Source: Lama guanicoe
Taxonomy: Eukaryota
DNA length: 64,000 nt
Direction: 5' to 3'
Assembly: GCA_013239625.1 (NCBI GenBank)
Contig: MU053810.1
Span: forward strand, 3,690,071-3,754,070
Shown here: one piece after another, positions 26,186-49,766 of the stretch
How the letters are laid out: each line of letters starts with the position of its first letter
Numbering within the stretch: position 1 is the first letter of the stretch
Position numbers and translations under genes: made by a program
The notes under the pieces: model-generated
What the model was told of the DNA's origin: nothing
Seen by the model: only the letters and a program-made list of their open reading frames with translations
The model's database searches: none

Positions 26186-27744
26186 CTTGAGGGTCTATTT
26201 TTATCCTCTAAGAAAGGAAATTAAATGCCATCCTTCAGGCTGTCATAGGGAGACGCACAGCCTTCCTGTCAATATTTTTCTTTGGCTTCCTACCAGATTT
26301 TGATCACGTGTCATCTCACCAAATTTTAGTTAAGGGATGCCTTCCCGGAAAAAGACTGGGAGATGCTACAGAGGGTTAAATAGACACCAAGAACTAGAGG
26401 AAGGGAAACAGGAAACTGAGTGCTGACTTTGCCTTGGTATCAATCAGTATGGTGTGTTTTCCGGCTGGGTTCATATAAACCAGGGGTAGGAGGTACCTCC
26501 AAGGTCAACACCAAGGATCCCTTCATTATCCAGGGCTGTGGCCTCTTGTCATTCCGTTCCTGCCCAATTGCTCTCTGCTGTTCAGTCTCCTTCAGAGCTG
26601 GCTTGTGCCTTATCACAGCTTCCTCTCACCTCGAGCTACCAGTCTCCTTGTCGAAGTTGTCCTTCCATTGTGCTTTCTGATGAACAACTACAACAAATTC
26701 TGTTCTTGACATTGTCAGTTCCCCTTCACAACCAGCAAATTTAGGTGACAAAACCAAGTTACATTGAACTTGTCAGAATACACAGGGCCATGGGCTAAAC
26801 CACATAGCCTAACTTTTTTTTTTCAATTTTGGTTATTAATATGATCCTAAATGAAAAAAAAATATGTCAAACAGAAACTGAAAAGAGATGTTTGTATTGT
26901 TGGAGTCTCAAGTGCATTTTTATTGTCTTGATTACCTCCATTCCCATGATGATTTAAATGGATTTTTAACCTAACTTGGGGCCTTCCTTTAAAACCAGGA
27001 TGCTCTGATATATATCTTATTGCTTGGAACATCTCTTATTTGAAGCAATTCCAAATATTAAAGAACATAATTAAATCATCTTCCACTTGTTAAAATGATC
27101 TCTTTTTTATTTTTACTATTTTATGAGCTTTTTGAGCAATTATAAAGCAAGGACTATAAAAACTATGCCAGTTTTAAAAGGAGGAGTAGACTTTCTAATT
27201 GTGAGAAAATGTTAATATATTGATGATTGTAGTCTTTTTGTACTAAAAATAGGAAACTTAACAACTGAACATACCTACATTACTAAAGTTATTTTTCAAT
27301 GTCATGACTTTGATCCCTGATGTTTAATTTGTAAAAGCAACATTCACCTCCAAAAATGATGTGCTGTCTTCAAACGTGTTAACATCTGCCCACCATTAAC
27401 AACCTCATTTAAAAAGGAGGAAGATGACTTGAAGAATTTTAACTTAAATTCCCATGCTCATTCATGCCTCCTATTTAAAGCTTTGTTTTCCTACTGGTTA
27501 GGAATATTTTAATAGGCTTTCTTGGAATAGAATTTCCTGGTCTCATAAGTATCACTGAGTTTAAAAATGAACAGGTGTGGCAGGGTTTCTAAGAAGCAGT
27601 CGTGCATTTTTCTAAAACCAAAAGCTGTAGACGATAGGGAAAGGATTATTTAAATTCCTTCATACCTGACATTTTACCCCAGACTCCATTTAAATCCCTA
27701 GGGCCTGAGTTCCAGGTTCATTGCCCAGGTAAATTCATTTACGT
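26186..27744 (-). pseudogene. Collagen pseudo-exons (about 26186-26366, 26430-26740, 26936-27004, 27666-27744)
   Basis: EHP GFK GRP ...G|gtaatc; GPR DLN GVW GKM S G|gtatga; DNE GIL GVD; PGLY EPS RKT. Confidence 0.65.
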
Positions 27745-27852
27745 CTAAAATTGCATTTATGCAGTTGTTTGTTTCATAAGCTTAGTGGAAGGCTCCAGAG
27801 ATCGTTTCTTGAACTGCAGTGAACGGTATTCCTTTCTTCTTCACTGACCCAG

Positions 27853-28102
27853 CGCTGCTGCCAAAGCGGACGGTATCGAAGCATTGATCAACACCCTGTC
27901 CAGCAGGCGGAACAAGGTGGTCGCCAATGCAGCCACGGTGCTGATGAACATGGCCATGCAGGAACCTCTGCGCCTGAGCATCCAGACCCACGACATCATG
28001 CACGCCCTGCTCAGCCCCCTACGCTCTGCCGACAAGGTCGTGCAGAGCAAAGCCACTCTCGCCATCGCTGCCATTGCCTGTGATGCCAAGGCCCGGACCG
28101 AG
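27853..28102 (+). CDS. ARMC3: ARMC3 coding exon (about exon 11)
   Basis: ccag|C GCT GCT ... ACC GAG|gtgagc; 250 nt; AAAKADGIEALINTLSSRRNKVVANAATVLMNMAMQEPLR...ARTE. Confidence 0.95.
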
Positions 28103-28199
28103 GTGAGCCTTTTCATCCCTCATGTTCATTGCTCCTTCCTTCTGGTCTTTTGAAACATTTTCAAGGGTTTGAACCCACCCATCACTTAAATCCCTCAAA

Positions 28200-28830
28200 T
28201 TTGGTGCAACGTGTTGGAAAACAAATCGGCACCATCCAGCAAAGAAGGTGAGCCTTCCCTATCATCGGGCAATTCTGTTCCTAGGTCTGTACCTAAGACA
28301 CACTCTGGCCTCTGTGCACCAGGAAGCATTGCTTATAATACCCCAACAGCTGGAAACAAACCAGCTGTCTTGTTGTTAAGAGAATGGATGCATACATTTG
28401 TGGTATATGCATAAAATGGAATCTCATATCAGTGAAAATCAATGAACTGCAGCTACAGAGAAGAAATCAACAGAGCAGACACTCAACCAGCATAATGCTG
28501 AGCAAAGTCAAGCTCAGAAGAAGACAGACTTGTGATTCTATTTCTCTGACGTTCAAACATATGCAAAGCTAAGCAATGTGCTTTTAAGCACACACGTATA
28601 TAAGTTAAAACTATGAAGAAAAGCAAGAGAATGACTGGCCCTAAATTCAAGGAAGTGGTTGCCTCTTAAGGGATCAAGAAAGTGCATGTGATTGCAGAGG
28701 GCATGTAGGGGTTCAAGGTCACTGAAATGTGCCATTTCTTCAGCTGAGTGGTAGACAAACAGGTGTGCCTTTTACTATGATGCTTGAAATTATGTGTGTG
28801 TATGGGTTACATACACTCCTCTTTTCCTTA
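28200..28830 (+). mobile_element. Old L1ME-like 3' fragment
   Basis: gcaattctgttcctagg..., aatgaactgcagctaca..., cataatgctgagcaaa... are typical L1ME 3' motifs. Confidence 0.65.
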
Positions 28831-29089
28831 CATTTCAAAAATTTAAAACATGGAATCGCATTTTTTACAAGTGTGTTGGTCCTATTCATAGACAATATAA
28901 ACCTAGAAGTGTATATTTTTCTCTTTTTTCCCATTTGCTTATCACATGGCACTCATTCAAACAGCCTAGGACTCTGTCCCTCTCTCTCTCCAATAGAAGT
29001 AACAATGTTGAGCACTTACTAAGCATCAGGCACTGTGCCAAGCACTTTCCATGCATTTAAGCCTCACCTGAAATAGGTATATTTATCAC

Positions 29090-29672
29090 TAATTGGAAAG
29101 ATACATGCTCCCCAATGTTCACAGAAGCATTATTTACAATAGCCAAGAAAAGGAAGCTGCCTAAATGCCCATCAACAGATGAATGGATAAAGACGATGTG
29201 GTATATATACATAATAGAATATTACTCAGCCATAAAAAGAGTGAAATCCTGCCATGTGCAACAATGTGGTTGGACCTAGAGTGTATTGCACTTAGTAAAA
29301 CAAGTCAGAGAGAGACAAATACTCTGTTATCATTTACATGTGGAATTTAAAAAATAAAACAAATGACTATAACAAAACAGAGACTCACAGATACAGAGAA
29401 CAACCTAGTGGTTACCCATTGGGAGAGGGAAGGGGGAGGGGCAAAGTAGGGGAAGGGGAGTAAGAGGTATAAACTATTAGGTATAAAATAAATAAGCAAC
29501 AGGATATATTGCACAGCACAGGGAAATACAGCCATTATTTTGTAATAACATTAAATGGAGTATAATCTAAAAATATTGAATCACTGCATCCTAAAACTAA
29601 AACTAATATGATAAATGAACTATATGTAATTTATGTAATATGTAAACCAATTATACTCTAATTAAAAAAAAA
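29090..29672 (+). mobile_element. LINE-1 3' end (L1MA-like) with A-tail, nested in a MIR
   Basis: cccaatgttcacagaagcattatttacaatagccaag...; A-run; degenerate TSD gaaataggtata / gacataggtaca; MIR-like sequence on both sides. Confidence 0.85.
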
Positions 29673-31261
29673 GACATAGGTACACTTGTAATCCCCATTT
29701 TACAGATAAGGAAAATGAGGCTTAAAGAAAGAATATTTACAGAGTTGGTCGGTGGGTGAATCAGGGATGTGAGAACATATCTTTCTGAGTCTATCTGCTC
29801 AGACAACTGACAAATCTATTCTCTTCTGTCTCTTAGTTATCTTTTCCATCCTCCTTCTTTGTCCCCACTGACTCAGTTCATTTGTATTATTCCATTAAGG
29901 TAGTAAGACAGCCATCAAGTATTTATTTACCAACTACTATGTGCCAGGCACTACGTTAGGCAGTGGCAACACAGTAAGAAACACCGGTGTCTCTCGGTCA
30001 CACCTCCGTGTGGCTTACACAGTGGTCCATCTGCTTCCTGGAATATTGCAGCGGACTCTACAGCTCTCCCTACCCCTGCCATTTCCTCCTCCCCAAACTG
30101 CCTCTGAACTGATCTCTCACATATAAGACCCTCATCACATCATTCCAAGTCCCCAGTGGCACATCATTTCCCGTGGGAAAAGCTAAGCTGCCTAGTAGTG
30201 CACTACGTAAGGGCTCGCCCCTACCTGCCTAAGCTGGAACTCTCTTCCCAGGTGTAACTCTACACTCCAGAGATACCATAGGATTTGTAATCTGTCAGCA
30301 TCCTCTGTTCTCTTATTTATACCTCCTTGATGTCTCTGTTTGGGAAGCTAGTCTCACTTTGTCCACCTGATAAATGCCTGTTTCTCCTTCAAAACCCAGC
30401 TCAGCCATCCTGTCTTCCATGAGGCCTTTCTTCAGTCCTTAAACATGGACTCCAACATCCTCCTCCGTGCTCCCACCACCCCCTCTGCATGTCCTCTGCT
30501 TTGCTTAGCTTTTGTATGAAAGGCTAAAAGCTCCTCGAGGCTTTAGGGACGGGAACTGAGGTTTTTCTTCCCTATTTCCCTGTCATTGACACATACCTGG
30601 CCCACAGTCCACATTTCATAAACAGCTAGTGAGTGAATAAGCGAGTGAATGAATGAGTGGAGAAATTAATAAATGAATTAGATCTTTGCCAAAAGAACAC
30701 ATGGAGTCAGATTCCTATCTTGTATTATACTCAGAAATAAAGATGTTCAGAGATCTGGCTTGCTAAACATAAGATGCTTCAAGTAAACTTTTCAAAGCTG
30801 TCCAAGTTGAGTTGCTAACATGCAATCCCCGTCAGAGTCCCTTGTTTGAGAAGGAAATGCCTGGAAGCGGATCATTTTCCTCAGTGTCTCTCGTCTTCAG
30901 ATACTACGTGGAGAGACCAGTGCAATATTCTTTTGTCCTCGAGGCTCAGTTAATACCACATTACATTTCAGACAGTGAGACAAGAGCTCTGTCAAATCTT
31001 TTTTTTTCCCCCTGATTGGAAGCATTTTATACATGAGTAATTTCTTTTAATAATGTAATTAATGTAGTTGTGTTCAATTTCCCTCTTGTTCTTCTTTTTT
31101 TTTTTTCTACTCCTTGAAGAAAAGTGAGTGATGACAAAATGGATCTCTTTCTGGGGAACTGTTTCAGTATTGTTTTTGGCCACACTGCTGACTTGGCGTC
31201 AGCGTCCAGTCACATGGGTGGCACTTGCCTGCATTGGTTCCTCCCACCCAGCCTTGGAAAC

Positions 31262-31675
31262 TGTATCCGGTCATTTGCTGAAACAAACGACCACAGCTTA
31301 GTGGCTTACAGCAATACAAATTTGTTACCTTGCAGTTTGGGAGTTCAGAAGGCTGACAATGGGTCTTATGAGTTAAAATCAAGGTATCAACAGAGCTGTG
31401 ATGCTTCTGGAGACTTGAGGGGAAAAATCTGTTTCCCGGCACTTTCTAGCTTTTACCATCCACCTACATTCCTTGGCTCTCGTGTCTTCCTTCACCTTCA
31501 AAGCAGATTAATGCTCCTGACACCCTCATCTCCCTCTTATAAGGACACTTAATAGTTAAATGGGGCCCACCTGCTAATCCAGGACAATCTCCCCACCCTC
31601 AAATCCTTAACCACATCTGCCAAATCCCTCCCAGGTACACGGCCATCTCTGGGGGTCCATTACTTTGTCCACTGC
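31262..31675 (-). mobile_element. MLT1 LTR
   Basis: ccacagcttagtggcttacagcaatacaaattt...tcttataaggacact...taatccaggacaatctcccc. Confidence 0.75.
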
Positions 31676-32031
31676 AGGTCCAAAGTGGACCTGCAGTGCT
31701 GAGGAGCAGAGTGAATGAGCACACGGCAGCCCACCTGCAGGCAGGGAGAGGACAGGCTCTCTGCCCCGTCCCTGCACCGAGTAAACTCACAATGACCTCC
31801 GCCACTTTCCTGTGGCCTCTTCTTGACTTTGAACAGAAAACTGGGCTATCTGTAAGGTCTATTTGCAATAGATTCTTTTCCCCTGGATTTAATAAATCAA
31901 AAATATGGATACATCTTAAAATATTTTTACATAGACAAAACCTTTCAACAGTCAAATAATCAGATTTTTTTAAAGCATTAATGTTTATGTTCTGTCCTCT
32001 CAATGTGTATAATTTTGGTTCCTCCTTCTAG

Positions 32032-32168
32032 TTGAGAAATTCAGGTGGACTGGAGCCGCTGGTTGAGCTCCTGCGTTCCAAGAACAGTGAAGTCAGAAAT
32101 CACGCCAGCTGGGCCGTGATGGTCTGTGCCGGTGATGAGCCCACGGCCACTGAGTTATGCAGGCTCGG
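32032..32168 (+). CDS. ARMC3: ARMC3 coding exon (about exon 12)
   Basis: ctag|TTG AGA AAT ... CTC GG|gtgagt; 137 nt; LRNSGGLEPLVELLRSKNSEVRNHASWAVMVCAGDEPTATELCRLG. Confidence 0.95.
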
Positions 32169-32337
32169 GTGAGTGGGGCAGAATCGGGTGTCTGGTTCAG
32201 ATGAAGAAGCTCGGTCACAAGCTTCAGGCCCAAGAAGGTCAAACAGAGTCCACGCACCGGAGTGTTCAGAAGTCCTGCCTGTCCCAATGGGGGGGGGGGG
32301 CGCTTACAGAAGTGGGGCCCTTCCCCATTGCTCCCAC

Positions 32338-32652
32338 CTAGAGATCTCCCTCACCACCGCCATAAAAAGCATCCTCAGCATTTCCTTTTCCACCTTTTTC
32401 ACCTTGATGAATGCTTCTCTTTCACTTTCCTCTGCTCTGCTAGACACAATCTTATTTGTCTCTCAGCTTTCAAGGCTAAAATAAAATGGGCAAGCCAGGA
32501 CTGGCATCTCTCCTCCTCTCCCCGACAAACCTTTCCACCAGAATTATGCATTTAACCGACCTCACCAAATCGCTTCTCCTTACTTACAGCCGATGTGTGA
32601 GCTGCCTTTAGCATATCAGCAAATAGGGTTAAAACAGGTAAACAGGTTTACC
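32338..32652 (-). pseudogene. Collagen pseudo-exons inside the 802-nt ARMC3 intron
   Basis: HQ GEK GGK GNA EDA FYG GGE GDL at 32341-32409; GEV G*M HNS GGK VCR GEE at about 32510-32565; GKP at about 32645. Confidence 0.8.
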
Positions 32653-32970
32653 CTATTTCTAACCATTTTTATTCTTAGTGTATATTGCCTGGTTAGCTGA
32701 AAGAGCTGGAGTCCAATACTAATTTTGCTTCACATGAAGAACTTTTTCTTCTGAAAGTATTCTTTTCAACTGTTAGAATATGAGTTACTACCTGGCATAT
32801 ATGCTCTCAAGAAGGACTGATTTGTCTTCATAATTCTGTCAGGATCAGTTTATTGAAAAGGGTGGGATGGTTTTAATCTTTCCTCCTCAATTCCTCATTC
32901 AGGACTTTAGTGAGGTATGTAAATGGGTCCTTATGAAAAGCAAATCATGTTTTTTGGCTTTTATTGACAG

Positions 32971-33139
32971 AGCTTTAGATATCCTTGAAGAAATTGATCT
33001 ATCAGTAAGTCGAAAAAATAAATTCAGCGAGGTAGCTTACAACAAATTGCTCAACCACCACCTGTCTCTGAAATACAGCAAGACTGGCTATTTGTCCTCA
33101 AGTAACATAATTAGTGATGGATTCTATGACTATGGTCGG
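32971..33139 (+). CDS. ARMC3: ARMC3 coding exon (about exon 13)
   Basis: acag|A GCT TTA ... GGT CGG|gtaagt; 169 nt; ALDILEEIDLSVSRKNKFSEVAYNKLLNHHLSLKYSKTGYLSSSNIISDGFYDYGR. Confidence 0.95.
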
Positions 33140-33609
33140 GTAAGTGGCAGCCCTAATTTTTATATTAGTATGTGTGACCATTTCTTCTTTAATCATGGTG
33201 CCATTACATTGCAATTATAACTGCTTAACACAATTTATATTTTTATAGACAGAAACTTGGGAATCAGAACTTCATCCTTAAATTTTGTCTGGCTATAAGA
33301 TTTTGTGTTATAGTTTTAACTAGAATCTGGCTACTTATACTTAAATCAGCTTGCTGATGCTAGTCTCAAGTTTCAGAGAAAATATCAAAGAAACAGCTTC
33401 CTTTGTATTACTTTTAGGGCTCAGTATTAATGATAAGGATAAAATTATAAGCTTTTCATTTTATTAATTATAGTTGAAATTAACCAAATTGTAATGCTGA
33501 ATTTTAAAATGAAACATGGGAGAATATTATTTTACTTAGCTGCATTTATGATTGTGATTTTCAAAAATTTAAAACAATTTATGGTGAAATTCAGTGTTAC
33601 TGTTGAGAG

Positions 33610-33689
33610 AAATGGGAAGCCGAGCATTAGAATCTTGAGGACTTTCGGACATTACTGTCTCAGTCAGCACTTTCTACTTCTTCTGGAAA
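33610..33689 (-). pseudogene. Collagen pseudo-exon
   Basis: ctttcag|TTT CCA GAA GAA GTA GAA AGT GCT GAC TGA GAC AGT AAT GTC CGA; five consecutive triplet-start codons are each one base from Gly; ends in GGC TTC CCA. Confidence 0.6.
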
Positions 33690-33805
33690 CTGAAAGCAAT
33701 AAAGGAGAATGGGGACATTTTTTAAAACCTACAAATCCCATTTTAGGCAAAAAGAGGAAACAGGTGTGATCCACAGACTTCAGAAACATTTAAGAGTTAA
33801 AAGTC

Positions 33806-33894
33806 CCTCATTGTGCTGTACATCAGAAATTGACACATTGTAACTGACTGTACTTCAATAAAAATAAACAAATATATATATATATTTTAAATGA
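33806..33894 (+). mobile_element. Very short, 5'-truncated LINE-1 3' tip with TSD
   Basis: tgctgtacatcagaaattgacacattgtaactgactgtacttcaataaaa; 14-bp TSD AAGAGTTAAAAGTC at 33792-33805 and 33895-33908. Confidence 0.85.
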
Positions 33895-35515
33895 AAGAGT
33901 TAAAAGTCTGTGAGATCAGGCAGGAGTATATAGGAGGAGGAATGAAAAGGGGAAAAAGAGCAGAGGGAGGGGCAAGAGTGGTGGCGGATCTCAGAAAGCA
34001 CCTTCAAATTCTATTCTTCCTGAGTGGATGGAGAACTCAGAAGTGCACAGACTGATTGTTCAGTTTGCCGGGGGGCAAGTGGGCTGGGGTGAGCAGCGCT
34101 GGCAGCAGAATCCCTCTTGGGCCAATTTGGTTCAAAGAAGCAGAGGAGACAGGGCCATAAGAGAATCACAGCTCAGCCATGTTTGCAGGAAACACTGCAT
34201 CACGGTAAAATAATCAGAGACATTCTGAATAATCAAAACAGCCAGCCTAAAACTTTACTCTAGCTCTTTCTTCTGCTTCCCCCGACTACTGCCACCACTG
34301 TATTCTCTATAACGCACACACAAGCTCGGAGAATTTACTGCTCCCGTTCAATGAGGAGTCATTTACAGAGAACTGGTCCAGCATCATTAGTACAAAGCTG
34401 CTTTAAGAAAAGTGAGGAAAAGAGCAGAAAAACCACCAAAGAGCCCTTACCAGAAAAATGTTGCCATGGGACAGATAAAATTGTGACAAAATGTATTTAT
34501 ATATTTTATTATGTAAAACTAAGGAGACAATTTCCTTGTGAAAGAGAATTCTCTGGTTCATTCATTCAGTAAATATTAAGTTTCTAACATTTTAGGCTTA
34601 AAAAATGTCAGTACACAAAAGAAACAGCAATCTCTACTCCATGGCACCAGTGAGAGGAAACAGACGATAGACAATAAATCTCACAAATAACTTATATCAC
34701 ATGATCGAAATGGGAAGAGCTACAGTTGGGTGGGGAGTGGAGCAAAGGAGGATAAGGGTGCTCCATCGTACTGGGGATACTGGGGTTGATGGTCGTGATT
34801 TGACACGATGGCCAGGTAGCCTCACTGAAAGCAAAAATTTGAAGGAGGCGAGGGACTTAGCCACGAGGAGAGTAGGGACAGGAGCTTTTGAGGCAGAGGA
34901 AGCAGCTAGTGCAGAAGCCATAAAGGGTCAACATGGTTGGCACATTTAAGGGACAGCAAAGTCAGTGCAGCCAGAGCTGAGTGAACCAGGGATGGAAAAG
35001 CAGAGATGAAATCAAAGAGGTAAGGAGCCAGCACACCATGTCAGTCTTGTAGACCATTGCAAGGATTTGGGACTTCACTCTGAATCAAGTAGGGAAACAC
35101 AGCAGAGTTCTGACCAGAAGAATGGCCGTGATCTGTCTTACTTTAAAAGGATCAGGAAGAGTATCTTGGATAAGAGAGGGCCCTATTTCTTGATTGGAAA
35201 AAGACCTCAGAAGGCGATCGGGTCTCCCCTTCTTCACCAGGCTGATAAAATTGTTGGTATAAGGCTTTGTCCAGCTTGTCTTTAGTTATCCTCACAACAT
35301 TTTTAGTGGTCTGTTTAGTAATTAGTTATTCTTACAGGCAATAAGCCCTCCCTTATGTATATAGATGGATTTTCAAACTCAAATACTTCCAGGGGCCAAG
35401 CTGATTATTATGGTGGGAAACAGCCGAGTATAAATCTACAGAGACTGCAGGGGAATTGGGGGCTACATCTTCCCCAAAGGCAAGATGCCCACAAGCTTCA
35501 GGCTCCTATTTCTAG

Positions 35516-35546
35516 GTGTGTGTGTCTGTGTGTGTGTGTGTGTGTG
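35516..35546. repeat. (TG)n microsatellite
   Basis: gtgtgtgtgtctgtgtgtgtgtgtgtgtgtg. Confidence 0.9.
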
Positions 35547-35646
35547 ATATGAGACACCTCAAACAGTAGAGAACCTATTTTATCAATATTCATTAAGAAA
35601 ACATATAACCCATGCAGATACTACTTTTTAATTCTTATATCTACAG

Positions 35647-35747
35647 ATACTGATTGGCACCAAACTTTTGCCTTTGAAGGACCTCTGCTTACAAGAACCA
35701 AGCGATCTACATACTGTACTCTTAGTTAACAGCAAATCTTCTGATGT
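35647..35747 (+). CDS. ARMC3: ARMC3 coding exon (about exon 14)
   Basis: acag|ATA CTG ... GAT GT|gtgagt; 101 nt; ILIGTKLLPLKDLCLQEPSDLHTVLLVNSKSSD; phase fits both neighbours. Confidence 0.9.
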
Positions 35748-35779
35748 GTGAGTCTTTTCAGGGGAGAAGGGATGCAGGG

Positions 35780-36010
35780 AGGCACATAATTTTTTCGGTT
35801 TGCCCATCACCATGCAACTATGTCAAGACTCCCAGTATGGTATCTTTTTTTGTTGTTTTCCTCCCTGTATCTAACACCACCATGAAAGTAGCCGCTGGTC
35901 CCTACTCTTACAGCCTGACACAATAAAGACCACGGAATCTTGGCCCCCATGGTTTTCCCTCTGATGCCTTGTTACCAGTCAATTCCTTATGTATTTCTGC
36001 CATCAGCGCT
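35780..36010 (-). pseudogene. Collagen pseudo-exon inside the 714-nt ARMC3 intron
   Basis: GAA TTG ACT GGT AAC AAG GCA TCA GAG GGA AAA CCA TGG GGG CCA AGA TTC CGT GGT CTT TAT TGT GTC AGG = (G)LT GNK (G)SE GKP (G)GP (G)FR GLY (G)VR. Confidence 0.75.
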
Positions 36011-36461
36011 TCTTACCCTTCCGGGTAACATGAAGTAATTGAAGAAGTTATAAATAGGAGCAAAGTGAGATGAATTATGTTTACAAATCTCTAAAACTAT
36101 ATGCAGGAATACCACTGCTGCCCAATTTTTTTTTCAAAATAAGAAGTAAATAGTAGTGCTAATAATGAAAGCTTCAACTGATCTTGAAATAGTCTTGTAT
36201 TCCTATATATCTATATAATACATTCTATGTGACATAGTTTATAAAAATATTTCCAGTTCTAACTTCATGAAAAGCTTTATAATATTCATTTTGCCTTATC
36301 TTAACCTCTCCTTTATGCTTTTAAAAATAAAACATCACTGTTAAAAGTCAGCTCCAAACATGATTTTTTCAGGAAAAAAAAATCTATTTTGTAGGAGAAA
36401 GTCAATGTTGACAAACACATTATCTTAATTTGTACATAATTTCAAATATGTAAAATTTTAG

Positions 36462-36563
36462 TTCTCCACCTCCAGCTATGGAAGATAAGCCATCAGACGT
36501 TGGTAATGGACGAAGTATCTCCTCTTCATCTTCTTTACGAAGAGCAAGTAAAGAAAAGACCAA
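36462..36563 (+). CDS. ARMC3: ARMC3 coding exon (about exon 15), Ser-rich linker
   Basis: ttag|T TCT CCA ... ACC AA|gtaggg; 102 nt; SPPPAMEDKPSDVGNGRSISSSSSLRRASKEKT. Confidence 0.88.
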
Positions 36564-38700: not shown

Positions 38701-38899
38701 CAAGGTTGAAAGTTATTTGGTATACTTGTGAATGTTGAAATAGCGGTCTTCCAACAGCTGTGGGTTTTTAATTGTGATATCCAGTATTCATATTTTTCCA
38801 TAACATTTTGAAGCATTCACGTGTTCATCTCATTTGACCCTAGTCGCCTTGTTCTGTGTGTAAGTTCCGTCTTTTCTGGTTCTTTAGCTATCTCCTCAT

Positions 38900-39560: not shown

Positions 39561-40224
39561 TGCCTAGTCTTCATTCTCTTCACCTTTTTGTTTCTGTGAG
39601 GCCTTCCCTGATCACCCCAGGTTAAATATTCTCTTCACGGCCAGTCCTTTGTGAATTTGATTCTCTCTCTTGTATATAACCTGAACTGTTAATGCTGATT
39701 TGTTTGTCTTTCTTACTGGGCACTGAGCTGCTGGAGACCTGAGGCCATGCCCTTTTTTTTTTTTTAATCTGTATATTCATGGAGCCTAAAATAATACCAG
39801 GCACATCAGGAACAGCAGAGGAATATTTATTGATTAAATAGTCACACGTTATTTCAAATATTGAATGCTGGTTGTTGAAAGGAATAGATGTTTGAGTCCC
39901 TTGCAGCATGCCCGGGGAAAACGTTATAAACAAGTGACGATAATTATCTCTTCCTCACACCATTTCCACTCTGCTCCTTGTCTCTGCATATTCTGGCATG
40001 TCACTCCCCACTTAAATGTGAACCTTACTGTGCTCCTAACATTTAGAGGATTGTTGACAAGGAGGAGATCACACTGACTTTGGATTCAAACAAAAGCGGT
40101 CTTTGGTTTTCATATCTGTAAACTGGAAATGATGGTCCCTACCTCACAGAGCTGCTGTAAGAGAGAGTGAGATGATGTATGTAAAGTTCCTAAACCACTG
40201 CCTAGCTTATTTAAGTGATCATTG

Positions 40225-40352
40225 TGTGTCCAGGCTCTTTCCTCATCTTAGCCCTTGGTCCACTGTGTGAGAGATCTGTCATAATCTCATTGTCCCATTG
40301 TTTATCTTTTGGTCAACCTTTCTCGTCTTGTGACTGCTAAAACTTTGGACCT
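40225..40352 (-). pseudogene. Collagen pseudo-exon
   Basis: RGPK..DEK G*P K DKQ WDN EIM TDL SHS GPR AKM RKE; codons at the Gly register are mostly one substitution from GGN. Confidence 0.65.
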
Positions 40353-40760
40353 CTGGACATAGAGTAAAATATTTTAACTCTACTCATCTGATAATGTCAT
40401 GGAGAATGTTTAACACTGACAAAAAGATCCTGAGCAATACTGACAAAGAATAATGAGACATCTGGAACCACAGAGTGGCTGAATTTTTGAAAGGGAGAGG
40501 AGAGAAGAGCTGGGAGACAAGTCAACCCCCTGCATGTGAGGTGCCCTAATACAGACAAGGAAAGTGAAAACGTGGGTTTCTGTTTTTCCGGATGAATATC
40601 ATTGCCATATACCATGTAAATTAAAATTTTTAAGCAAGAGGCTCTCGTTAGGTGACCATCCTATTTCTGCCTTTGAAATTTAATTTTAATTGCACTCTCT
40701 TTGATGGCACAACACTCATAGGAGAGGTGATCAATTTATTTCCTGTCTATGCAATCACCT

Positions 40761-40849
40761 TCTTCCATCCAAGTACTGACCAGGCCCGACCCTGCTTAGC
40801 TTCCAAGATCAGACGAGATTGGGCGCGTTCAGGGTGGTACGGCGTAGAC
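40761..40849 (-). pseudogene. 5S rRNA retropseudogene, 3'-truncated (first ~89 nt)
   Basis: Reverse complement GTCTACGCCGTACCACCCTGAACGCGCCCAATCTCGTCTGATCTTGGAAGCTAAGCAGGGTCGGGCCTGGTCAGTACTTGGATGGAAGA; TSD CA(A/G)TCACCTTCTT at 40752-40764 and 40852-40864. Confidence 0.93.
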
Positions 40850-41079
40850 TCCAGTCACCTTCTTGATACTTCCCCAGGCTTCACTGACACCAACATGTCT
40901 AATGCCCTCTAAAGCTTTTCCTTGTAAAGACCATTCTCTTTACAATAAATATGTACTACACCCATTCATGAAATGAAGTATAACTTTGTGTCTATACTCT
41001 ATTTTTGTATTCAGACTAGTCTTCATAAATATTTAAGTTGATTGCACATGAGTTTATTATACACGCTTGAAAGTTTAAT

Positions 41080-41195
41080 GTTTTCCTGTCTCCTTTTTCA
41101 CATCCTTCCAGTCTGTTCATCTTTGGAGACTTTTAGACTTTAACATTTCTGCTACTTAGATCATCTTGATCCCCATCACAATGACTTCCCCAAAC
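41080..41195 (-). pseudogene. Collagen pseudo-exon
   Basis: GEV ... GDQ DDL SSR NVK ... RLE G CEK GDR. Confidence 0.6.
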
Positions 41196-41221
41196 ATTTT
41201 TGCTTTTAAAATAATTTCCCT

Positions 41222-42261
41222 CAGAAAACTGGATAGCCACATGTCTAAGAATGCAACTAGGTGACTATCTTACACCACAAACAAAAATTAACTCAAAACT
41301 GTAAGACCTGAAGCCATAAAACTCCTAGAAGAAAACTTAGGTGATAAGCTATTGACTTTAGTCTTGGCGATACATTTTTGGACCTGACTCCAAGAGTACA
41401 GGCAACAAATCAAAAATAAACAACTGGGACTACATCAAACTAAAAAGCTTCTGCACAGCAAAGGAAACCATCAATGAAATGAAAAGATAACCTACTGAAT
41501 GGGAGAAAATATTTGCAGATCATATATACAAAAAAAAAGTTGGTATCTAAAATACAAAAATAATTCATAAAATTCATGAGAAAAAAAATCCAATCTGATT
41601 TAAAAAGGGGCAAAGGATCTGAAGTTTTTTTTTTCCAAAAAAGATATACAGATGGCCAACAGGCACGTGAAAAGATGCTAAACGTCACTAATCACAAGAG
41701 AAATGCAAATCGATACCACAGTGAGCTGTCACCTCACACCTGGTAGCATGGCCATCAGGAAGACAAGAGATGAGAAGTGTTGTCCAAGATGTAGAGAAAG
41801 GGAACCCTCATGCACTGTTGGCGGGAATGCAAACTGGTGCAGGCACCAAGAAAAACAGTATGGAGATTTCTCAAAAAAATTAAAAATTAAAATGGTCCAG
41901 CAATTCCATTTCTGATTATCAGAAAAGAATGAAAACACTAATTTGAAAAGAATTCTACACCCACATGCTCATTGCAGCATTACTTTAAATAGCCAAGATA
42001 TGGAAACAACCTAAATGTCCATCAATGGATGAATGGATAAAGAAGAAGTGGTACATGTAGACAATAGAATAGTACTCAGCAATAAAAAAGAATGAAATCT
42101 TGCCATTTGAGACAACATGGTTGGACCTTGAAGGAATTATGCTAAGCAAAATGTCAGAGAAAGATAAATAGCATACAATTTCACTTATATGTGAAATCTA
42201 AAAAACAAAGCAAATGAACAACAAATCTAACAAAAAGCATAAAGAGAGCAGAATGGTGGTT
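41222..42261 (+). mobile_element. Older LINE-1 (L1M/L1MA-like) ORF2 3' end and start of 3'UTR
   Basis: ENWIATC...IKLLEENLG...[14 protein letters not shown]; aaatgtccatcaatggatgaatggataaag. Confidence 0.9.
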
Positions 42262-45139
42262 GCATATATTTTCTTCTAGGAGGTTTATTGTATCTTGTCT
42301 TATTTTTAAGTCTTTGATCCATTTTGAGTTTATTTTTGTGTATGGTGTAAGGGAGTGTTCTAGCTTCACTGATTTACATGCTGCTGTCCAGTTTTCCCAG
42401 CACCATTTGCTGAAGAGACTGTCTTTATTCCATTGTATATTCTTGCCTCCTTTGTTGAAGATTAGTTGACCAAAAGTTTGTGGGTTCATTTCTGGGCTCT
42501 CTATTCTGTTCCATTGGTCCATATGTCTGTTTTTGTACCAATACCATGCTGTTTTGATTAGTATTGTCTGAAGTCTGGGAGAGTTATTCCTCCAGCCTCT
42601 TTCTTTTTCTTCAGTAATGCTTTGGCAATTCTAGGTCTTTTGTGGTTCCATATAAATTGTATTATGATTTGTTCTAGTTCTGTGAAATATGTCCTGGGTA
42701 ATTTGATAGGGATTGCATTAAGTCTGTAGATTGCCTTGGGCAGCATGACCATTTTAACAATATTGATTCTTCCAATCCAAGAGCATGGGATATCTTTCCA
42801 TTTTTTAAAGTCTGCTTTAATTTTCTTAATCAGTGTTTTATAGTTTTCCATGTATAAGTCTTTCACCTCCTTGGTTAGATTTATTTGTAGGTATTTTATT
42901 ACTTTGGGTGCTATTTTAAAGGGGATTGTTTCTTTACTTTCTTTTTCTGTTGATTCATCATTAATGTAAAGAAATGCAATTGATTTTTGAATGTTAATCT
43001 TGTAACTTGCAACCTTGCTGAATTCTTCAATTATTTCTAGTAGTTTTTGTGTGGACCTTTTAGGGTTTTCTATATATAGTATCATGTCATCTGCATACAG
43101 TGACACTTTGACCTCTTCTTTTCCAGTTTGGATCCCTTTTATTTCTCTCTTGCCTGATTGCTAGGGCTAGGACTTCCAAGACTATGTTGAATAGGAGTGG
43201 GGATAGTGGGCAGCCTTGTCTTGTCCCAGATTTTAGTGGGAAGCTTTTGAGTTTTTCACTATTGGGTACTATGCTGGCTGTAGGTTTGTCATATATAGCT
43301 TTTATCATGTTCAGATATGTCCCCTCTATACCCACTTTGGTGAGAGTTTTTATCATAAATGGGTGTTGAATTTAATCAAATGCTTTTTCTGCATCTATTG
43401 AGATGATCATGTGGTTTTTGTCCTTTCTCTTGTTAATGTGATGTATTACATTGATTGATTTGCATATGTTGAACCACCCTTGTGTCCCTGGGATGAACCC
43501 CACTTGATCATGACGCATAATCTTTTTTATGTGCTGTTGGATTCTATTTGCTAATATTTTGGTAAAGATTTTTGCATCTATGTTCGTCAGTGATATTGGT
43601 CTGTAATTGTCTTTTTTGGTGGTGTCTTTGCTTGGTTTTGGTATCACGGTGATGGTGGCTCCATAGAATGAGTTTGGGAGTGTTCCTTCCTTTTCAATCT
43701 TCTGGAAGAGTTTGAGAAAGACTGGTATGAGTTCTTCTTTGTATGTTTGGTAGAATTCCCCAGTGAAGCCCATCAGAAAACAGTATTTGAAACCTGTGTA
43801 TAATCAATAACAGGAGATTAAAATCAAGAGAAATAAAAACGAAATGAGGTAAGTTTTTTAAAATGATAAAAATAAAAATATTTTAAAAGAAAAATTTTAA
43901 AGGGATTAAAACTGTAGACATATACAGTTGTTTAAAAAGTAAAAATTAAAAAGGTAATAGAAAATAGAACAGATATAAAAAAGATTTATAAAAAAAGGGG
44001 GTGTGTTCGTCTGGAGACTGTGTGCTCTTAATGATTTTATGGAGAAGTCTTTCTGCCTTCGCCTTGTTTTGAAAACTCAGCTTGCTGTTTCCAGAGGCCC
44101 TCCATTGGCGCCCTTGTCAGTGCTGCTCCCAGTGCCAGATGGCAAGCAGACAGCACCCCCTCCCAATAGTGGGTCAGGTGCTGAGCTCTCACCCAGTGGG
44201 CAGGCGGGTCACTCCCCGAACCGATGGCACAGTCAGATGCTGCACTCGGGCGAGGCAGGTGGGCAGATCGCGCCCCCTCCCAGCACCGTGGTCAGGTGCT
44301 GCGTTCCTGCCAGGAAGGCGGGTGGCCGCCCTCCCTCTCCCGGCATCCGCTCCGCTGCTCTGTGCAGCTGCCCGCTCTGCCTCAGGATGGCGCTCTGTAG
44401 TCGGCTGGGGGAAGACCACAGAACAGCCCCGCCATGGCCCCGGCGCGGCGCACAGGAGGAGGTGGCGGCTGTGGCTGCGCCCCGCCTCTCTTCTCGCTGA
44501 GAAGCACCAGCAATGGCGGCGCAGGTCTGAGGAGACAAAGGCTACGGCGCCCCTCCCCCCAGGGCACACCAGCCATGTTGCTTTGCTTTTTTTTCCCCAT
44601 CATTTATGCAGGACCCAGGTGGTTCCGCTCCGTATCCCCTCCCAGCCACGGCACGCAGCCCCCTGCAGTCCCCGGGGCTCCCTCAGTGCAGCGGCCCCCG
44701 TCCTCCGCCCGGCTCGGGCCGCCTGTCCCGGCTGCCGGCTCGCATCTCAGGCTGGGTGTCGCAGGGACACTTTATGCCCGTTTAAATTAGTTCTGTTGGT
44801 CAAGGGCTGCTCCGTGCAGATCTGAGCCTCGGAGGCTCCCACTCTGTCCCGCTGGCCTCTCCGTTGGAGGGGGGAGACCCAGCGAACGAGGGCTAGTGCT
44901 TTGCCGCTCCCTCCCTGTGGGACTGGTCCCACACTGTTTTGCTTTTTCTTCTTTCTTTTTTCCCTTTCTCCTACCAGATTTGTGGCATTTTTGTCTTAGG
45001 AATAGGGCAATGTTTTGTTGGAGTTAAGCAGGTGCTCCGGTTGGCTAGTTGGGTCCGTGGTTGTGAGTTTTGGTGTGTTTGTGGGAGAGGGTGAGCGATG
45101 AGCATCCTTCTACTCCGCCATCTTGGCCCCTCCCCTCCA
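42262..45139 (-). mobile_element. Relatively young LINE-1: CpG-rich 5'UTR joined directly to the ORF2 RT region; lacks ORF1, EN and the 3' end
   Basis: GGGGCCAAGATGGCGG at the 45139 end; ORF2 peptides [46 protein letters not shown] at 42262-43773, with a nonsense codon and frameshifts. Confidence 0.95.
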
Positions 45140-45173
45140 CTTGGTGATTTTGATTGCTGTCCTTTACTCTAAG

Positions 45174-45374
45174 GAAAGGCAGAGGCAAAAAAGAGGAGGA
45201 AAAAGTGAAGGAGGAGGAAGAGGTTGCAGCAGCACCAAAACTGACTGGAGAAGGAAGCACTGATAAAGAGTGGTGCCCTCCCTCCGACCCTGACTTCTGT
45301 GTTTATGTGTGTGAAGTGACCAAATCCATCCTTCCCATCACCAATATCAGGGAACAGATTGAGCTTCTTGCCAA
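45174..45374 (+). CDS. ARMC3: ARMC3 coding exon (about exon 17)
   Basis: taag|G AAA GGC ... GCC AA|gtaagt; 201 nt; KGRGKKEEEKVKEEEEV...EWCPPSDPDFCVYVCEVTKSILPITNIREQIELLA. Confidence 0.93.
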
Positions 45375-46032
45375 GTAAGTCATTTATATATACATACACA
45401 TATACATTTTTTTATTTTCTGAAAAAATGTTTTTGATTTTAGCGGTTTGCATTTTTTAGCCAATTTTCAGACTACACCATAATAAAACTGAACTTTACAG
45501 CACCCTACCTCTGACTCTGAAGCATAAACACAGTGAACTGAAAAAACAAAAATCCTCCATTTCTAGTTTAGATCCTATTTCTGCCAAGAATCAGAGCTAG
45601 GAGTTGGAAATGGCATAAAGAAAAATGACTAAGTCATTTTCCCCAGCTAAACCTTGAAAAGCATCTTTCAGGGTGATCCTGAAGAAGTTATGAATGAAGG
45701 AATTCTATTGTGAATTATTTGTAAACTCACAAGTTATTTTCTCATACAAATCACCACCCCCTACTTTTATGTCATACGTCCGATACTTTGTGTCTCGTGT
45801 TGCTCTGAAGTGGGCTTGTGGGTATTCTAAGAGATGGCTCAGCACTTTGAAGAAGCCAGTGAGATCGCCTTCTAAGTTAGAGCATTTAATCTGATTCCGT
45901 TTAGAGGAGGCTGAGAACGTGACTTGATAGCTGTAAGAAAACTAGAAACAGAGGACTGCCTTCGTGCCTGACACCAGCCAGTCGTGAGCCCCTGGCTTGT
46001 GCAACAGCTGCAGTCTCCACAGGAGCTTGTAC

Positions 46033-46126
46033 CTACTCCAAATGGAAGTGTGTCACAGCCGTCAAACCTGGATGTGACAACTGCAGAAACACAGCCGCCA
46101 GGTCGCCGACGTCCCGGCAGCCGGAG
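46033..46126 (-). pseudogene. Collagen IV-like pseudo-exon carrying the 7S PGxDGC(N) motif
   Basis: cttccag|...CTG CCG GGA CGT...CAT CCA GGT TT- GAC GGC TGT GAC...|gtacaa; resembles the PGYDGCNG motif of COL4A chains. Confidence 0.6.
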
Positions 46127-47182
46127 CTGGAAGAGAGTTGTTTCTGGCTACGGAAGTTTTCCCAGTGTCCTTGAGAAGTGATGACTCAAGCAGAACTCTA
46201 ACTTAGCTCATTTCAACATTTGTCAAATTTCCTCATGCTCTGTTCCTATCCGAAATACTTTCTATCATTCCCAAATAATTAGGCTTTTAACCTGAGCCCC
46301 CACCAAGATAGATATTCAGAGACTTGTCCTCAAGCTTTTGGTTCCTAGTGGTCATTACAGCACACCTGGCTGGCTGGCACTGCAGCTTTCTACCCAACCC
46401 TTTCTCTTGGTTTTCACCATTGTTCTTCTTTGCTTGGTTCCACATACAGCAAGAGGAAATTCTTTCTTTAAAATGTGCAATTCTGCCTTTACTCCAAGAT
46501 GAAGTAGGCTGAGCTGACGGAGGATTTTTGCAGGTGTGTTCACTGACATCTTGAGGGAGAGCCTGATTTTAGGAGAAACCCACAGGCAAAGTATGCCCCA
46601 CACATCTCACCTCCTCACCTAACTGTTACTTCTTTTTTCTTTCTGCTTCTTCATCTCTCCTCTAACTTTAGTGTTATATAAATGCCATGTCTTTCTCTAA
46701 ATTAAAAAAAAGATAAAATTTAAAAGAAAAAGATGATGAAACTTGAAAATATTTGTGAACCTATTGGGAAAATTTCTTATGTGTTTGTCTTTGTTTCTGA
46801 GTTTAAATTCCTAAAAAGAAAGTTAGTATAATGCCTTGGATTTCAGATGGAAACATTTGAAAATACTTTCAAGAGTAAGAGAACATTTAATTGTGTTGAT
46901 ATAAATTTAGTGTGATGTGAATTTATATCTTGCTATAAATATTGGGAAAATTAGCATTCCTGTCTTTCTTCCTGCTGAATGATACTGTTAGAATTTCAGT
47001 TTACATTTGATAGTTTGAATAGATTAAGCATAATGTTAACAGCTACTTACAGTAAGTACATTTTAAAAAGTAAAGCAAACAGAAATTAGAGGGGAAATAT
47101 TTTTAACACATACAGTTACACTCAAAACATCCAAAGTGAGATACTAAACTTGACTGATTTGATCTCAATGTGATTGACACAG

Positions 47183-47345
47183 GTATGTGGCAGAAAAAAT
47201 GGGTGGTAAGATTCCAAAAGAGAAACTACAGGATTTCAGCTGGCAACTTCATATAAGTGAACTAAAATTCCAACTTAAATCCAATGTTGTACCGATTGGA
47301 CAGATCAAAAAAGGAATCTTCTGCCATCGAGCTTTGCTTTTCAAG
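47183..47345 (+). CDS. ARMC3: ARMC3 coding exon (about exon 18), EDR1/CTR1-like C-terminal domain
   Basis: acag|G TAT GTG ... TTC AAG|gtattc; 163 nt; YVAEKMGGKIPKEK...SNVVPIGQIKKGIFCHRALLFK. Confidence 0.95.
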
Positions 47346-48199
47346 GTATTCAAAATGTTTGGCCTCATTTCTGATTAGGTAAAAATGTTTCACCTTTATG
47401 ATTGTGGAGTGAGCCAGTTGCTAACATTCAGTTGGGTGATATTTCTCCTGCCATTTAGATGTACTTATATTTGACATGTATATGTATGTGTACAGCCACA
47501 CACCTACATACATATTCACTGGACTATTAGAAGCACATTCAGTTGACACTTATCACAATCTACTATAGGCCAGGGTCTCTTCCAGGGTCTGGAATACAGA
47601 GATACTAAAGTGACAGTTCCTGTAAGCAAGGGAAGCCTGAGCCACACCTGTGGGTCTCAAGTGACATCAGGGAAAGTTCCAGGGGAGAAAAGGATATGTG
47701 GCCTCAGTATTAGAGGCTAACTAGGATTTCAGTGGGTAAAGAAAGAAGACAAGAGTGTTCTAAACAATGTGAACATGTGATTCAAAATAATAGGTGTGAG
47801 AGTCAGTGGTCCATTGGAGGGATGTAGTTTGTCTGGATGCAGAAAAGAGGGGAAGGGTTGGGGGAGGCTACAGGGCCAGATGATAAAGCAGCATGTGAGT
47901 TTGCACTTGATACTAAATCTGTGAGCAGCCACTGAAAGTTAAGGGGAAAGTGGCAACATGATTTTGAAAGACCATTCAGGAAATGAATTAGAACAGGGGT
48001 GAGACTGGAGACAGATCAGCTGGAAGGTCACTGGAGCAAGAAGCAAAAGTGAGCGAGACTAAAGCCAGGGTGGAGGATGTCAACGATGGGATGAGTTTAC
48101 AGGGAGATATAGGAGATAAAACCAATCAGTAAATATTTTGGAATTGATAATTACATGTTTATTTTTGTGTCTCTACCGCCACTATGAGTGTAAAATGAT

Positions 48200-48968
48200 T
48201 CTAGGACTAATTTCAAAGGGGTGGGAGATGTTTTCCACACATGCAAGCAATTCTTCAACACCAGCCAGGTGTCCTGCAATTGAACTCAGTTCTGACACGC
48301 CCTGCCTGGAGAGAGTGTCAGATCCCACAGGTTAAGGGACCAGTCCTAAAAGACTGCCCCGCCCCACCCTCTGCCCACTTCGGATGCCAATCACAAGCCC
48401 AAGGTGCATCTGACTGACCAGGCTGTAGACTGGAGGTTCCAATGACCTCCTCCTGGGGTTCAATTAGTTTCCTAGAGGGGCTCACAGAACCCAGAGAAAC
48501 ATACTACTGAGGTCAGTGGTTTATTATAAAAGAGTATAACTCAGGAACAGCCAGGTAGGAGAGATGATCAGAGCAAGGTATGGGGAAAGGGCCCAGGGCT
48601 TCCATGCTTTCTGAGCACACTGTTCTCCCCAAACCTCCACCTGTTCATCAGCCCCAGAACCTCTCCAAATCCTTCCCTTTTGGGTTTTTATGGGCACTTC
48701 ATTGCATAACATGATTAAATCACTGGCCATTGGCTACTGATTCAACCTCCAGCCCTTCTCCCTTCCCCAGGGGTCTTGGGGAGTGGGTGTGAAAGTTCCA
48801 AAGTTGAGCCTCCTGGCAACAAGCCCCCTTCCTTACAAAAGTCACCCCATTCATATAACAAAGGACACCTTTATGGCTCTCATCACCTAGGAAATTCCAA
48901 GGGTCTTAGGAGCTCTGTGCCAGCAAGTGGACAAAGACCAAATATGTGTTTCTTACTGTATATCACAG
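48200..48968 (-). mobile_element. MER21-like LTR
   Basis: gtgtcctgcaattgaactcagttctgacac...cagatcccacaggttaaggg...ggaaattccaagggtcttaggagctctgtgcc. Confidence 0.7.
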
Positions 48969-49449
48969 AGTGCCACATAGCCAGATACAGTCATGTTATA
49001 GTTGCCTGTTGACCAGACTAGATAGAGTGTAAGGCCCTAGAAGTGACAACCGTGTCTTGGTCATCTTGGTCGAGCCAAGATGGTAGCAGTCATTACATCG
49101 TAAGCAATCAGTAATTACTTTAATATATAAACACAGAGATGACTGGAACAGCGCAAGAGTTGCCTTCTAGTACTGAGCACGTTCGTCGCGCACTTACTCT
49201 GTGCCAGCGTTCATAGCGTGCGTTCACTTCATCTTCACACCCAGCTGATGAGGAAGGTGGTTATCCCTTTGTTAGCCTCGTTTCACAGATAAAGACGTAG
49301 AAGCACAGAGAGGCTGAGTCATTTGAGGTGACAACTACTAGTCAGTGGCTGACCCTAAATTCAAACCCAGCCATCTCCGTTACCCACTATGGTGTGCCTA
49401 AGAAGCTCCCAGATTATTTTAAAGGTACATTCAAAATAACCTCAAAATC

Positions 49450-49625
49450 AGGACAAATTGAAGAGGCCATTTCCAAGGAACATAGCAAGCCCTGAGAACG
49501 GGGCAGCAGGCAGCCCTAGACGGGCCCACCGCCCACGACCCTGCCCCTTCCGCCCCGGGACACCCGTCTACACCACCCAGAACAAATGGGCTAGAAACAG
49601 GCCCCCAGCAATTCGACCCTTCCAT
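49450..49625 (-). pseudogene. Collagen pseudo-exon (Gly-X-Y)
   Basis: ORF-track peptide ...GVD GCP GAE GAG SWAV GPS RAA CCP VLR... Confidence 0.75.
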
Positions 49626-49689
49626 TCAGTCCCACTGCATATCACACCCCAAGAGCAGCCCAGAAGCACAGAAAGATTGATAGACACAC

Positions 49690-49766
49690 TAGTGCCGAAA
49701 GCCCGTGGAACAGCTTTTCTCCAATTACATGATCAATCTTGTGCTGATACAATGCAGCGTAACTGC
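49690..49766 (-). pseudogene. Collagen IV-like pseudo-exon: 7S N-terminal Cys region
   Basis: tttttcag|G CAG TTA CGC TGC ATT GTA TCA GCA CAA GAT TGA TCA TGT (+1) ATT GGA GAA AAG CTG TTC CAC GGG CTT TCG = C-x6-(C)-S-C-I-G-E-K-x-F-H-G-L-S. The phase matches an upstream GG|gtaagt donor at 49843. Confidence 0.6.

What the first reader, a model, noticed from the sequence alone, without database searches (positions are those of the whole stretch)
27666..49766. Interdigitated gene architecture: exons of two opposite-strand genes alternate
The collagen remnants are not confined to one intron. They occur in nearly every ARMC3 intron from 11910-27852 to 47346-50028. They occupy large parts of two short introns (32169-32970, 35748-36461) and come within about 110 nt of the exon at 27853 and about 35 nt of the donor at 35748. 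Such exon-by-exon interleaving of two long coding genes is uncommon. It would imply transcriptional interference, or mutually exclusive expression of a ciliary/sperm gene and a matrix gene (inference).
Basis: partly seen in the sequence, partly recalled or inferred. Interest (0 to 1): 0.7.

Follow-up and report, generated by a model that had tools for sequence, protein, structure and literature searches.

The report
Unproven antisense collagen fossil in ARMC3
This is the ordinary, intact sperm-tail gene ARMC3 of an alpaca-type camelid, whose introns hold a few broken collagen-like patches on the opposite strand that are likely mostly chance, so the claimed exon-by-exon interleaving with a second gene is not shown, although a long-dead collagen gene remains possible.

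Summary
ARMC3 is real: 13 exons, an open frame, 12 of 12 GT-AG introns, and 658 of 661 residues identical to alpaca ARMC3. The second gene is not shown.

Across 11910-50028 the minus strand has no 9-base Gly periodicity, no collagen X/Y polarity and no excess of spliced Gly-X-Y exons. Every homology search for the patches failed. Five of the nine claimed introns show nothing.

A weak local signal remains. One patch at 32340-32570 exceeds window-wide shuffles with one motif (0-1 of 60) but not another (13-14 of 60). Three neighbouring short introns and the long intron reach nominal P of 0.02-0.12, but the plus strand scores nearly as well. Simulated genes decayed by 30% or less would have been seen; 40% decay could not be told from chance.

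Verdict: mostly chance patterns (about 0.55). A very old antisense collagen pseudogene is possible (about 0.3). No outgroup genome or RNA reads could be examined. The scan's earlier findings hold no such case on other DNA.

The parts
2034..50238 (+). ARMC3, 3' part (residues about 180-872 of the human protein). Exons: 2034-2228, 4039-4222, 11552-11704, 11804-11909, 27853-28102, 32032-32168, 32971-33139, 35647-35747, 36462-36547, 36952-37066, 45174-45374, 47183-47345, 50029-50238 (stop).
   Evidence: open 689-codon frame; 658/661 identical to alpaca P0001 and 567/687 to human P0029; 12 of 12 introns GT-AG.
32340..32570 (-). Best Gly-X-Y-like patch: period-9 GGA/GGT register, no proline, three stop codons; in intron 32169-32970.
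   Evidence: 20 against 3.6 pairs, 0 of 300 shuffles; window-wide 0-1 of 60 with GG[AT], 13-14 of 60 with GG; 10 of 26 triplets. No Pfam or PDB collagen hit.
35783..36030 (-). Gly-X-Y-like patch, top scan score (17-23 bits), with stops and frameshifts; in intron 35748-36461.
   Evidence: 4-5 of 100 shuffles reach it. No period-9 excess (3 against 2.6). No collagen relative.
34252..34401 (-). Weak Gly-X-Y-like patch behind a pyrimidine tract, seen mainly with the low-proline model. A shorter patch lies at 35212-35241 in the same intron.
   Evidence: No Pfam hit.
23130..23255 (-). Weak Gly-X-Y-like patch (15-16 bits) in the long intron.
   Evidence: No relative.
19769..19858 (-). Gly-X-Y-like patch (18 bits) behind an AG acceptor-like site; best hit of the splice-aware scan.
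   Evidence: No collagen Pfam hit.
27666..27740 (-).
   Evidence: 11.2 bits, while the plus strand has 31 hits at 10 bits or more. No Pfam hit.
49500..49766 (-).
   Evidence: Absent from the hit lists at 10 or 11 bits. Intron depleted of period-9 pairs. No Pfam family in 3 frames.

Best explanation
The region is a normal, intact ARMC3 gene, and the opposite-strand 'collagen exons' are broken non-coding intron stretches that likely resemble Gly-X-Y mostly by chance. G- and A-rich patches of old intron and old repeat DNA place GG every nine bases now and then. A reader who may allow substitutions, stops and frameshifts can then read collagen into them on either strand. Shown: ARMC3 exon structure, broken frames on the minus strand, comparable scores on the plus strand. 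Inferred: the chance origin, and that several plus-strand look-alikes are LINE-2 remnants (recognised from memory, no repeat library available).
For: No strand excess with the model fixed beforehand (top-five sum minus 83.8, reached by 1 of 40 shuffles; plus 81.4, reached by 0 of 40). No period-9 GG signal over 30,974 unmasked nt. No X/Y polarity among 136 in-register Gly pairs (z -0.8; 7 typical against 8 swapped). Splice-aware scan: minus 8, plus 12 hits at 12 bits or more. 5 of 9 introns blank, and two depleted. 0 of 24 minus-strand frames hit Pfam Collagen. No family above E 0.2 in 30 longer minus-strand frames scanned for end domains. No collagen. The best patch has 0 Pro in 52 X/Y positions. 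Simulated genes decayed by 30% or less give 13-23.5 hits at 14 bits or more and 1.5-14.5 at 20 or more, against 5 and 0 observed. The window and strand were picked by eye out of many, which inflates any nominal P (inference).
Against: The minus strand exceeds shuffles inside the claimed span but not outside it (top-five sums 83.8, 89.6, 83.4 against about 68-71 inside; 62.5, 58.4, 63.0 against 58-66 outside). With the low-proline model, tuned after seeing the patches, there are 5 minus hits at 16 bits or more against 1 on plus and 1 on reversed DNA. Three neighbouring short introns all reach nominal P below 0.1 on the minus strand under both models. The 32340-32570 register survives a window-wide correction with GG[AT]. 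None of 10 minus patches has a second copy in the window (weak, since that test also missed presumed LINE-2 remnants). The homology searches have little power on short, frameshifted queries.
Confidence: 0.55

Rival explanations
1. The patches are the last remains of a multi-exon, proline-poor collagen-domain gene that ran antisense through ARMC3 and died before or near the origin of placental mammals (unitary pseudogene). Convergent transcription through a testis- and cilia-expressed gene would have favoured separate tissues and eased its loss (inference).
For: Inside-versus-outside contrast on the minus strand. Nominal signal in 4 of 9 introns, three of them adjacent (Fisher P 0.053 and 0.013). 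Period-9 cluster at 32351-32750. All 10 exact Gly codons there are GGA/GGT, with several Glu at X and Lys/Arg at Y (the preference is general knowledge). Observed counts lie between an unplanted control and a gene decayed by 40%. Embedded antiparallel pairs exist and are poorly conserved, 3 of 16 between human and mouse (PMC2330155).
Against: No relative, no end domain, no X/Y polarity and no splice-site excess. Plus strand nearly as enriched. No proline in the best patch. Five introns blank. No paper found that places a collagen at this locus. Lost collagen genes are few, so the prior per window is low (inference).
Confidence: 0.3
2. Only one or two patches are real periodic sequence (chiefly 32340-32570), from a local source such as a decayed 9-base minisatellite, an unrecognised ancient repeat or a short retroposed piece of a collagen-domain mRNA. 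There is no interleaved gene.
For: Only 1 of 24 intron-strand tests exceeds shuffles for period 9. The register runs about 230 nt with a single 1-nt shift, longer than the 54-108-nt exons usual in vertebrate fibrillar collagens (general knowledge). The locus took up other retroposed pieces.
Against: Tandem Repeats Finder reports nothing there. No poly(A) or target-site duplication was noticed by eye (not tested formally). Other patches on the same strand score as high in the codon model.
Confidence: 0.15

Closest known systems
ARMC3 (armadillo repeat containing 3); bovine gene with 19 exons, frameshift linked to a sperm tail stump defect (PMC4770540, passages)
   Same: Same gene: 658/661 identical to alpaca P0001, 567/687 to human P0029; open frame and canonical introns.
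   Different: Nothing unusual in the coding part. The exon at 36462-36547 is in frame here and in the human protein but absent from the alpaca record P0001.
Embedded antiparallel overlapping gene pairs (Solda et al. 2008, PMC2330155, passages): 16 of 749 human overlapping pairs, 3 conserved in mouse
   Different: That class needs two annotated coding genes. Here the second gene has no open frame, no relative and no transcript shown.
Nested genes under transcriptional interference in mammals (Assis 2021, PMC8467205, abstract only)
   Different: Concerns genes within a single intron, and finds no extra expression divergence between nested mammalian genes, which does not favour the 'mutually exclusive expression' idea.
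Fossils of protein-coding genes lost before the mammalian radiation (Hezroni et al. 2017, PMC5577775, abstract and supplement searches)
   Same: Precedent for ancient unitary losses; its section heading says retained sequence similarity is rare.
   Different: Its four readable supplements do not mention ARMC3, MSRB2, PIP4K2A or 'collagen'. The lost-gene table lists identifiers only, so a collagen there would not be recognised by name.

Membership tests
Collagen gene or pseudogene (Gly-X-Y triple helix) | Gly at every third codon over long runs | tested here: inconclusive
   None over the whole span. One patch with 10 of 26 triplets, window-wide 0-1 of 60 shuffles with GG[AT] but 13-14 of 60 with GG.
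Collagen gene or pseudogene (Gly-X-Y triple helix) | Proline-rich X and Y positions | tested here: not met
   0 Pro in 52 X/Y positions of the best patch; 2-6 CC dinucleotides in each of six patches of 75-231 nt.
Collagen gene or pseudogene (Gly-X-Y triple helix) | Polar X/Y preference (Glu, Leu, Phe at X; Lys, Arg at Y) | tested here: not met
   136 in-register pairs, z -0.8, 7 typical against 8 swapped. In 32169-36461 only 16 pairs, z 1.2.
Collagen gene or pseudogene (Gly-X-Y triple helix) | Sequence similarity to a known collagen or to Pfam PF01391 | tested here: not met
   0 of 24 frames in Pfam; none. Low power on short broken queries.
Collagen gene or pseudogene (Gly-X-Y triple helix) | Non-collagenous end domains (COLFI, C1q, C4, vWA, TSPN) | tested here: not met
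   No such family in 30 minus-strand frames covering 7949-11540, 12449-17660, 45379-47180, 48949-51050, 53249-55650 and 56249-62200. Other stretches were not scanned this way.
Collagen gene or pseudogene (Gly-X-Y triple helix) | Exons bounded by AG/GT in phase with the triplet repeat | tested here: inconclusive
   No minus-strand excess in a splice-aware scan (8 against 12 hits at 12 bits; 3 against 1 at 16). Old splice sites decay.
Collagen gene or pseudogene (Gly-X-Y triple helix) | Intact orthologue at the syntenic position in an outgroup | not testable with these tools
   No own genome. The genome collections are prokaryotic or viral. A metagenome scan gave one distant ARMC3-like locus at 25% identity.
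Embedded antiparallel (interleaved) gene pair | A second gene on the opposite strand | tested here: not met
   No open collagen frame or relative on the minus strand. At most a fossil.
Embedded antiparallel (interleaved) gene pair | Its exons spread over more than one intron of the host | tested here: inconclusive
   Nominal signal in 4 of 9 introns, none in 5; plus strand nearly as enriched.
Embedded antiparallel (interleaved) gene pair | Both strands transcribed and spliced | not testable with these tools
   RNA runs holding part of the stretch exist, but no reads or contigs could be laid.
ARMC3 | Orthologous sequence, open frame and canonical introns | tested here: met

The most novel reading that the evidence does not exclude
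An undescribed, proline-poor collagen gene once ran antisense through ARMC3, its exons alternating with those of a sperm-tail gene. It died on the stem of placental or therian mammals and should still be intact at this locus in birds, reptiles or fish.
Probability: 0.3. Interest if true: 0.58.

Novelty: not a real feature. Interest (0 to 1): 0.2.

Why it matters
As the evidence stands, this is an ordinary gene and a caution: collagen-like text can be read into purine-rich mammalian intron DNA on either strand. If the fossil reading were true, it would add a lost member to the vertebrate collagen repertoire. It would also be a rare case of a multi-intron antiparallel overlap (16 of 749 human overlapping pairs; PMC2330155) resolved by the death of one partner, which could be tested by comparing tissue expression of both genes where both survive.

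Tried and rejected
Whole own genome: none held.

Exact Gly-X-Y run search in six frames: nothing convincing on either strand. First nucleotide model: dominated by GC content, minus and plus equal, dropped.

The reversed-minus control keeps the G spacing of the same sites, so it is not independent. It was also the background of the power test, whose 'unplanted' row is therefore slightly high. One hit (27824-28160) was an artefact of joining across a masked exon; spacers were used from then on. The low-proline model was set after seeing the patches and is reported beside the model fixed beforehand.

Protein searches: alignment of 8 patches, 479 candidates, none at E 10 or below; 91-residue patch, 84 candidates, none. 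phmmer of an 80-residue patch against 1.84 billion representatives gave one hit, a triplicated bivalve carboxylesterase (P0112, E 3.7e-4), rejected as chance because it has no collagen domain and no collinear match elsewhere in the window. ESM Atlas: no usable hit. PDB: no collagen. Metagenome scan with ARMC3: one 25% identical locus, not vertebrate-like, unused. RNA: 23 runs listed, none could be laid; their word shares are not used as evidence.

Literature: nine searches found no paper placing a collagen in ARMC3. Supplements of PMC5577775 and PMC10208646 have no 'ARMC3' or 'collagen'. Supplements of PMC3296468 could not be read and may bear on the claim. The quail matrisome (PMC6447691; 30 of 41 places seen) was built from human orthologues and cannot list a gene lost in mammals. 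PMC12141075 (passages) and PMC5012577 (passages): nothing relevant.

Earlier scan findings: six look-ups, none on this feature. Resemblances to particular collagen chains recalled from memory were not testable and are not used.
Full report
Host gene. The exon at 27854-28102 matched alpaca ARMC3 (P0001) at 100% and 109 other records, nearly all named mammalian ARMC3. tblastn and exact mapping placed the exons. The assembled model has 13 exons from 2034 to the stop at 50238, an open frame of 689 codons, 12 of 12 GT-AG introns, 658 of 661 residues identical to P0001 and 567 of 687 to human P0029. ARMC3 is testis-biased in chicken (61%) and zebrafish (72%) (PMC6609395, passages and supplement rows), and a frameshift in it is tied to a sperm tail defect in cattle (PMC4770540, passages).

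What the patches look like. Three-frame reading of the minus strand shows Gly-rich stretches with stops at the places named. With free use of substitutions and frameshifts they read like collagen. The same exercise works on the plus strand, so I tested them against controls.

Whole-span tests were negative. A frameshift-tolerant codon model of decayed Gly-X-Y with local background, fixed before tuning, gave 21/5/2 minus hits at 10/14/16 bits or more inside 11910-50028, against 31/5/1 on plus and 26/0/0 on reversed DNA. Adding splice-site terms gave 8 minus and 12 plus hits at 12 bits, and 3 and 1 at 16 (unmasked, so plus includes real ARMC3 acceptors). GG pairs at lags 9, 18, 27 and 36 over 30,974 unmasked bases numbered 497 on minus against about 518 from other lags. 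Among 136 in-register Gly pairs there was no collagen-type X/Y polarity (z -0.8; 7 typical, 8 swapped).

Local tests gave a weak positive. For period 9, only intron 32169-32970 on the minus strand exceeded shuffles, 1 of 24 intron-strand tests (20 against 3.6; 0 of 300). Intron 35748-36461 did not (3 against 2.6), and the last two introns were depleted. Corrected over the whole window and both strands, the 32351-32750 cluster was reached by 0 of 60 (400-nt windows) and 1 of 60 (800-nt) trinucleotide shuffles with GG[AT], but by 14 and 13 of 60 with GG. In that patch 10 of 26 triplets begin with GGA or GGT, allowing one 1-base shift; no X or Y is proline. Best codon-model scores per intron were nominally high on minus in 4 of 9 claimed introns, three of them adjacent, and ordinary in 5. 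Fisher P was 0.053 (prior model) and 0.013 (low-proline model, tuned after seeing the data) on minus, and 0.158 and 0.047 on plus. Top-five score sums inside the span were 83.8 (1 of 40 shuffles) on minus and 81.4 (0 of 40) on plus with the prior model, and 89.6 (0 of 40) and 79.2 (2 of 40) with the tuned one. Outside the span the minus strand did not exceed shuffles (20, 26 and 6 of 30 reached it), while plus still tended to (3, 3 and 0 of 30). Real DNA therefore beats these shuffles easily, and the inside-outside contrast on minus is the best argument for a fossil.

Power. Synthetic collagen exons (30 of 54 nt, 20 of 108 or 12 of 216; two replicates each) decayed by 20-30% gave 13-23.5 hits at 14 bits or more and 1.5-14.5 at 20 or more. 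The window gave 5 and 0. At 40% decay the figures were 6.5-9.5 and 0-3, not clearly distinct from the window. A collagen gene that died within camelids or artiodactyls is thus unlikely; one that died before the placental radiation cannot be excluded (inference from typical neutral divergence).

Homology. No collagen was found for any patch: Pfam 0 of 24 minus frames and 0 of 24 plus control frames; word-based searches of 5.8 billion proteins; phmmer against 1.84 billion representatives, with one chance carboxylesterase hit; ESM Atlas; PDB. Thirty longer minus-strand frames up- and downstream held no collagen end domain (partial coverage). These searches are weak for short broken queries, so they remove support rather than refute. 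None of 10 minus patches has a second copy in the window, and Tandem Repeats Finder marks none. No repeat library was available.

What could not be examined. No own genome, no vertebrate outgroup locus and no RNA reads, although RNA runs holding part of the stretch exist.

Comparison with what is known. The proposed layout would be an embedded antiparallel pair, 16 of 749 overlapping pairs in human and 3 conserved in mouse (PMC2330155, passages). Mammalian nested genes show signs of interference and of elimination but no added expression divergence (PMC8467205, abstract). Traces of genes lost over 100 million years ago may have decayed (PMC3296468, passage; its supplements could not be read). 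Nine literature searches and six look-ups of earlier scan findings found no collagen placed inside ARMC3.

Verdict. The claim as written, alternating exons of two long coding genes in nearly every intron, is not shown. I put mostly chance at 0.55, a very old antisense collagen pseudogene at 0.3 and a single local periodic insert at 0.15. These odds are a judgement: they weigh the small number of lost collagen genes and the selection of this window by eye against the local signal. One look at the locus in a bird, reptile or marsupial genome would settle it.

Noticed in passing
window 17648-19041 (+): GC-rich retrocopy with a poly(A) tail and a 16-base target-site duplication at 17648 and 19026. 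The start resembles the N-terminus of the zinc-finger gene MAZ with the finger region missing (name recalled; the Atlas gave no hit at 0.9 or above).
   Followed up: partly
window 40743-40850 (-): 5S rRNA pseudogene in ARMC3 intron 37067-45173 (Rfam RF00001, 54 bits).
   Followed up: partly
window 14057-14128 (-): tRNA-like head (Rfam RF00005, 44 bits), probably of a tRNA-derived SINE (inference).
   Followed up: no
window 41220-45135 and 5940-7930: LINE-1-like pieces (identity recalled from the ORF translations). Their GC-rich ends match each other in opposite orientation at 66% over 552 nt.
   Followed up: partly
window 36462-36547 and 36950/36952 (+): An exon present in human ARMC3 but absent from alpaca record P0001. 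Including it keeps the frame only with the second of two tandem acceptors, at 36952; skipping it appears to use 36950.
   Followed up: partly
window 52186-52991 and 53560-54497: Two short local duplications past the ARMC3 stop codon, 83% over 141 nt and 79% over 147 nt.
   Followed up: no
window 45375-50028 (-): Unexplained deficit of GG[AT] pairs at multiples of 9 (0 against 5.1 and 5 against 16.2). It shows that this statistic has heavy tails.
   Followed up: no
literature, PMC5542427 (passages and section 21): A transcript labelled ARMC3 is among 43 genes changing in embryonic duck breast muscle along with COL1A1, which is odd for a testis-biased gene. It could reflect an overlapping transcript in birds, but nothing shows this.
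   Followed up: no
literature, PMC5577775 supplement 2 row 298: A gene lost in placentals has chicken identifier ENSGALG00000007803, numerically near ARMC3 (ENSGALG00000007864). Its name and position are not given and nothing ties it to this locus.
   Followed up: partly
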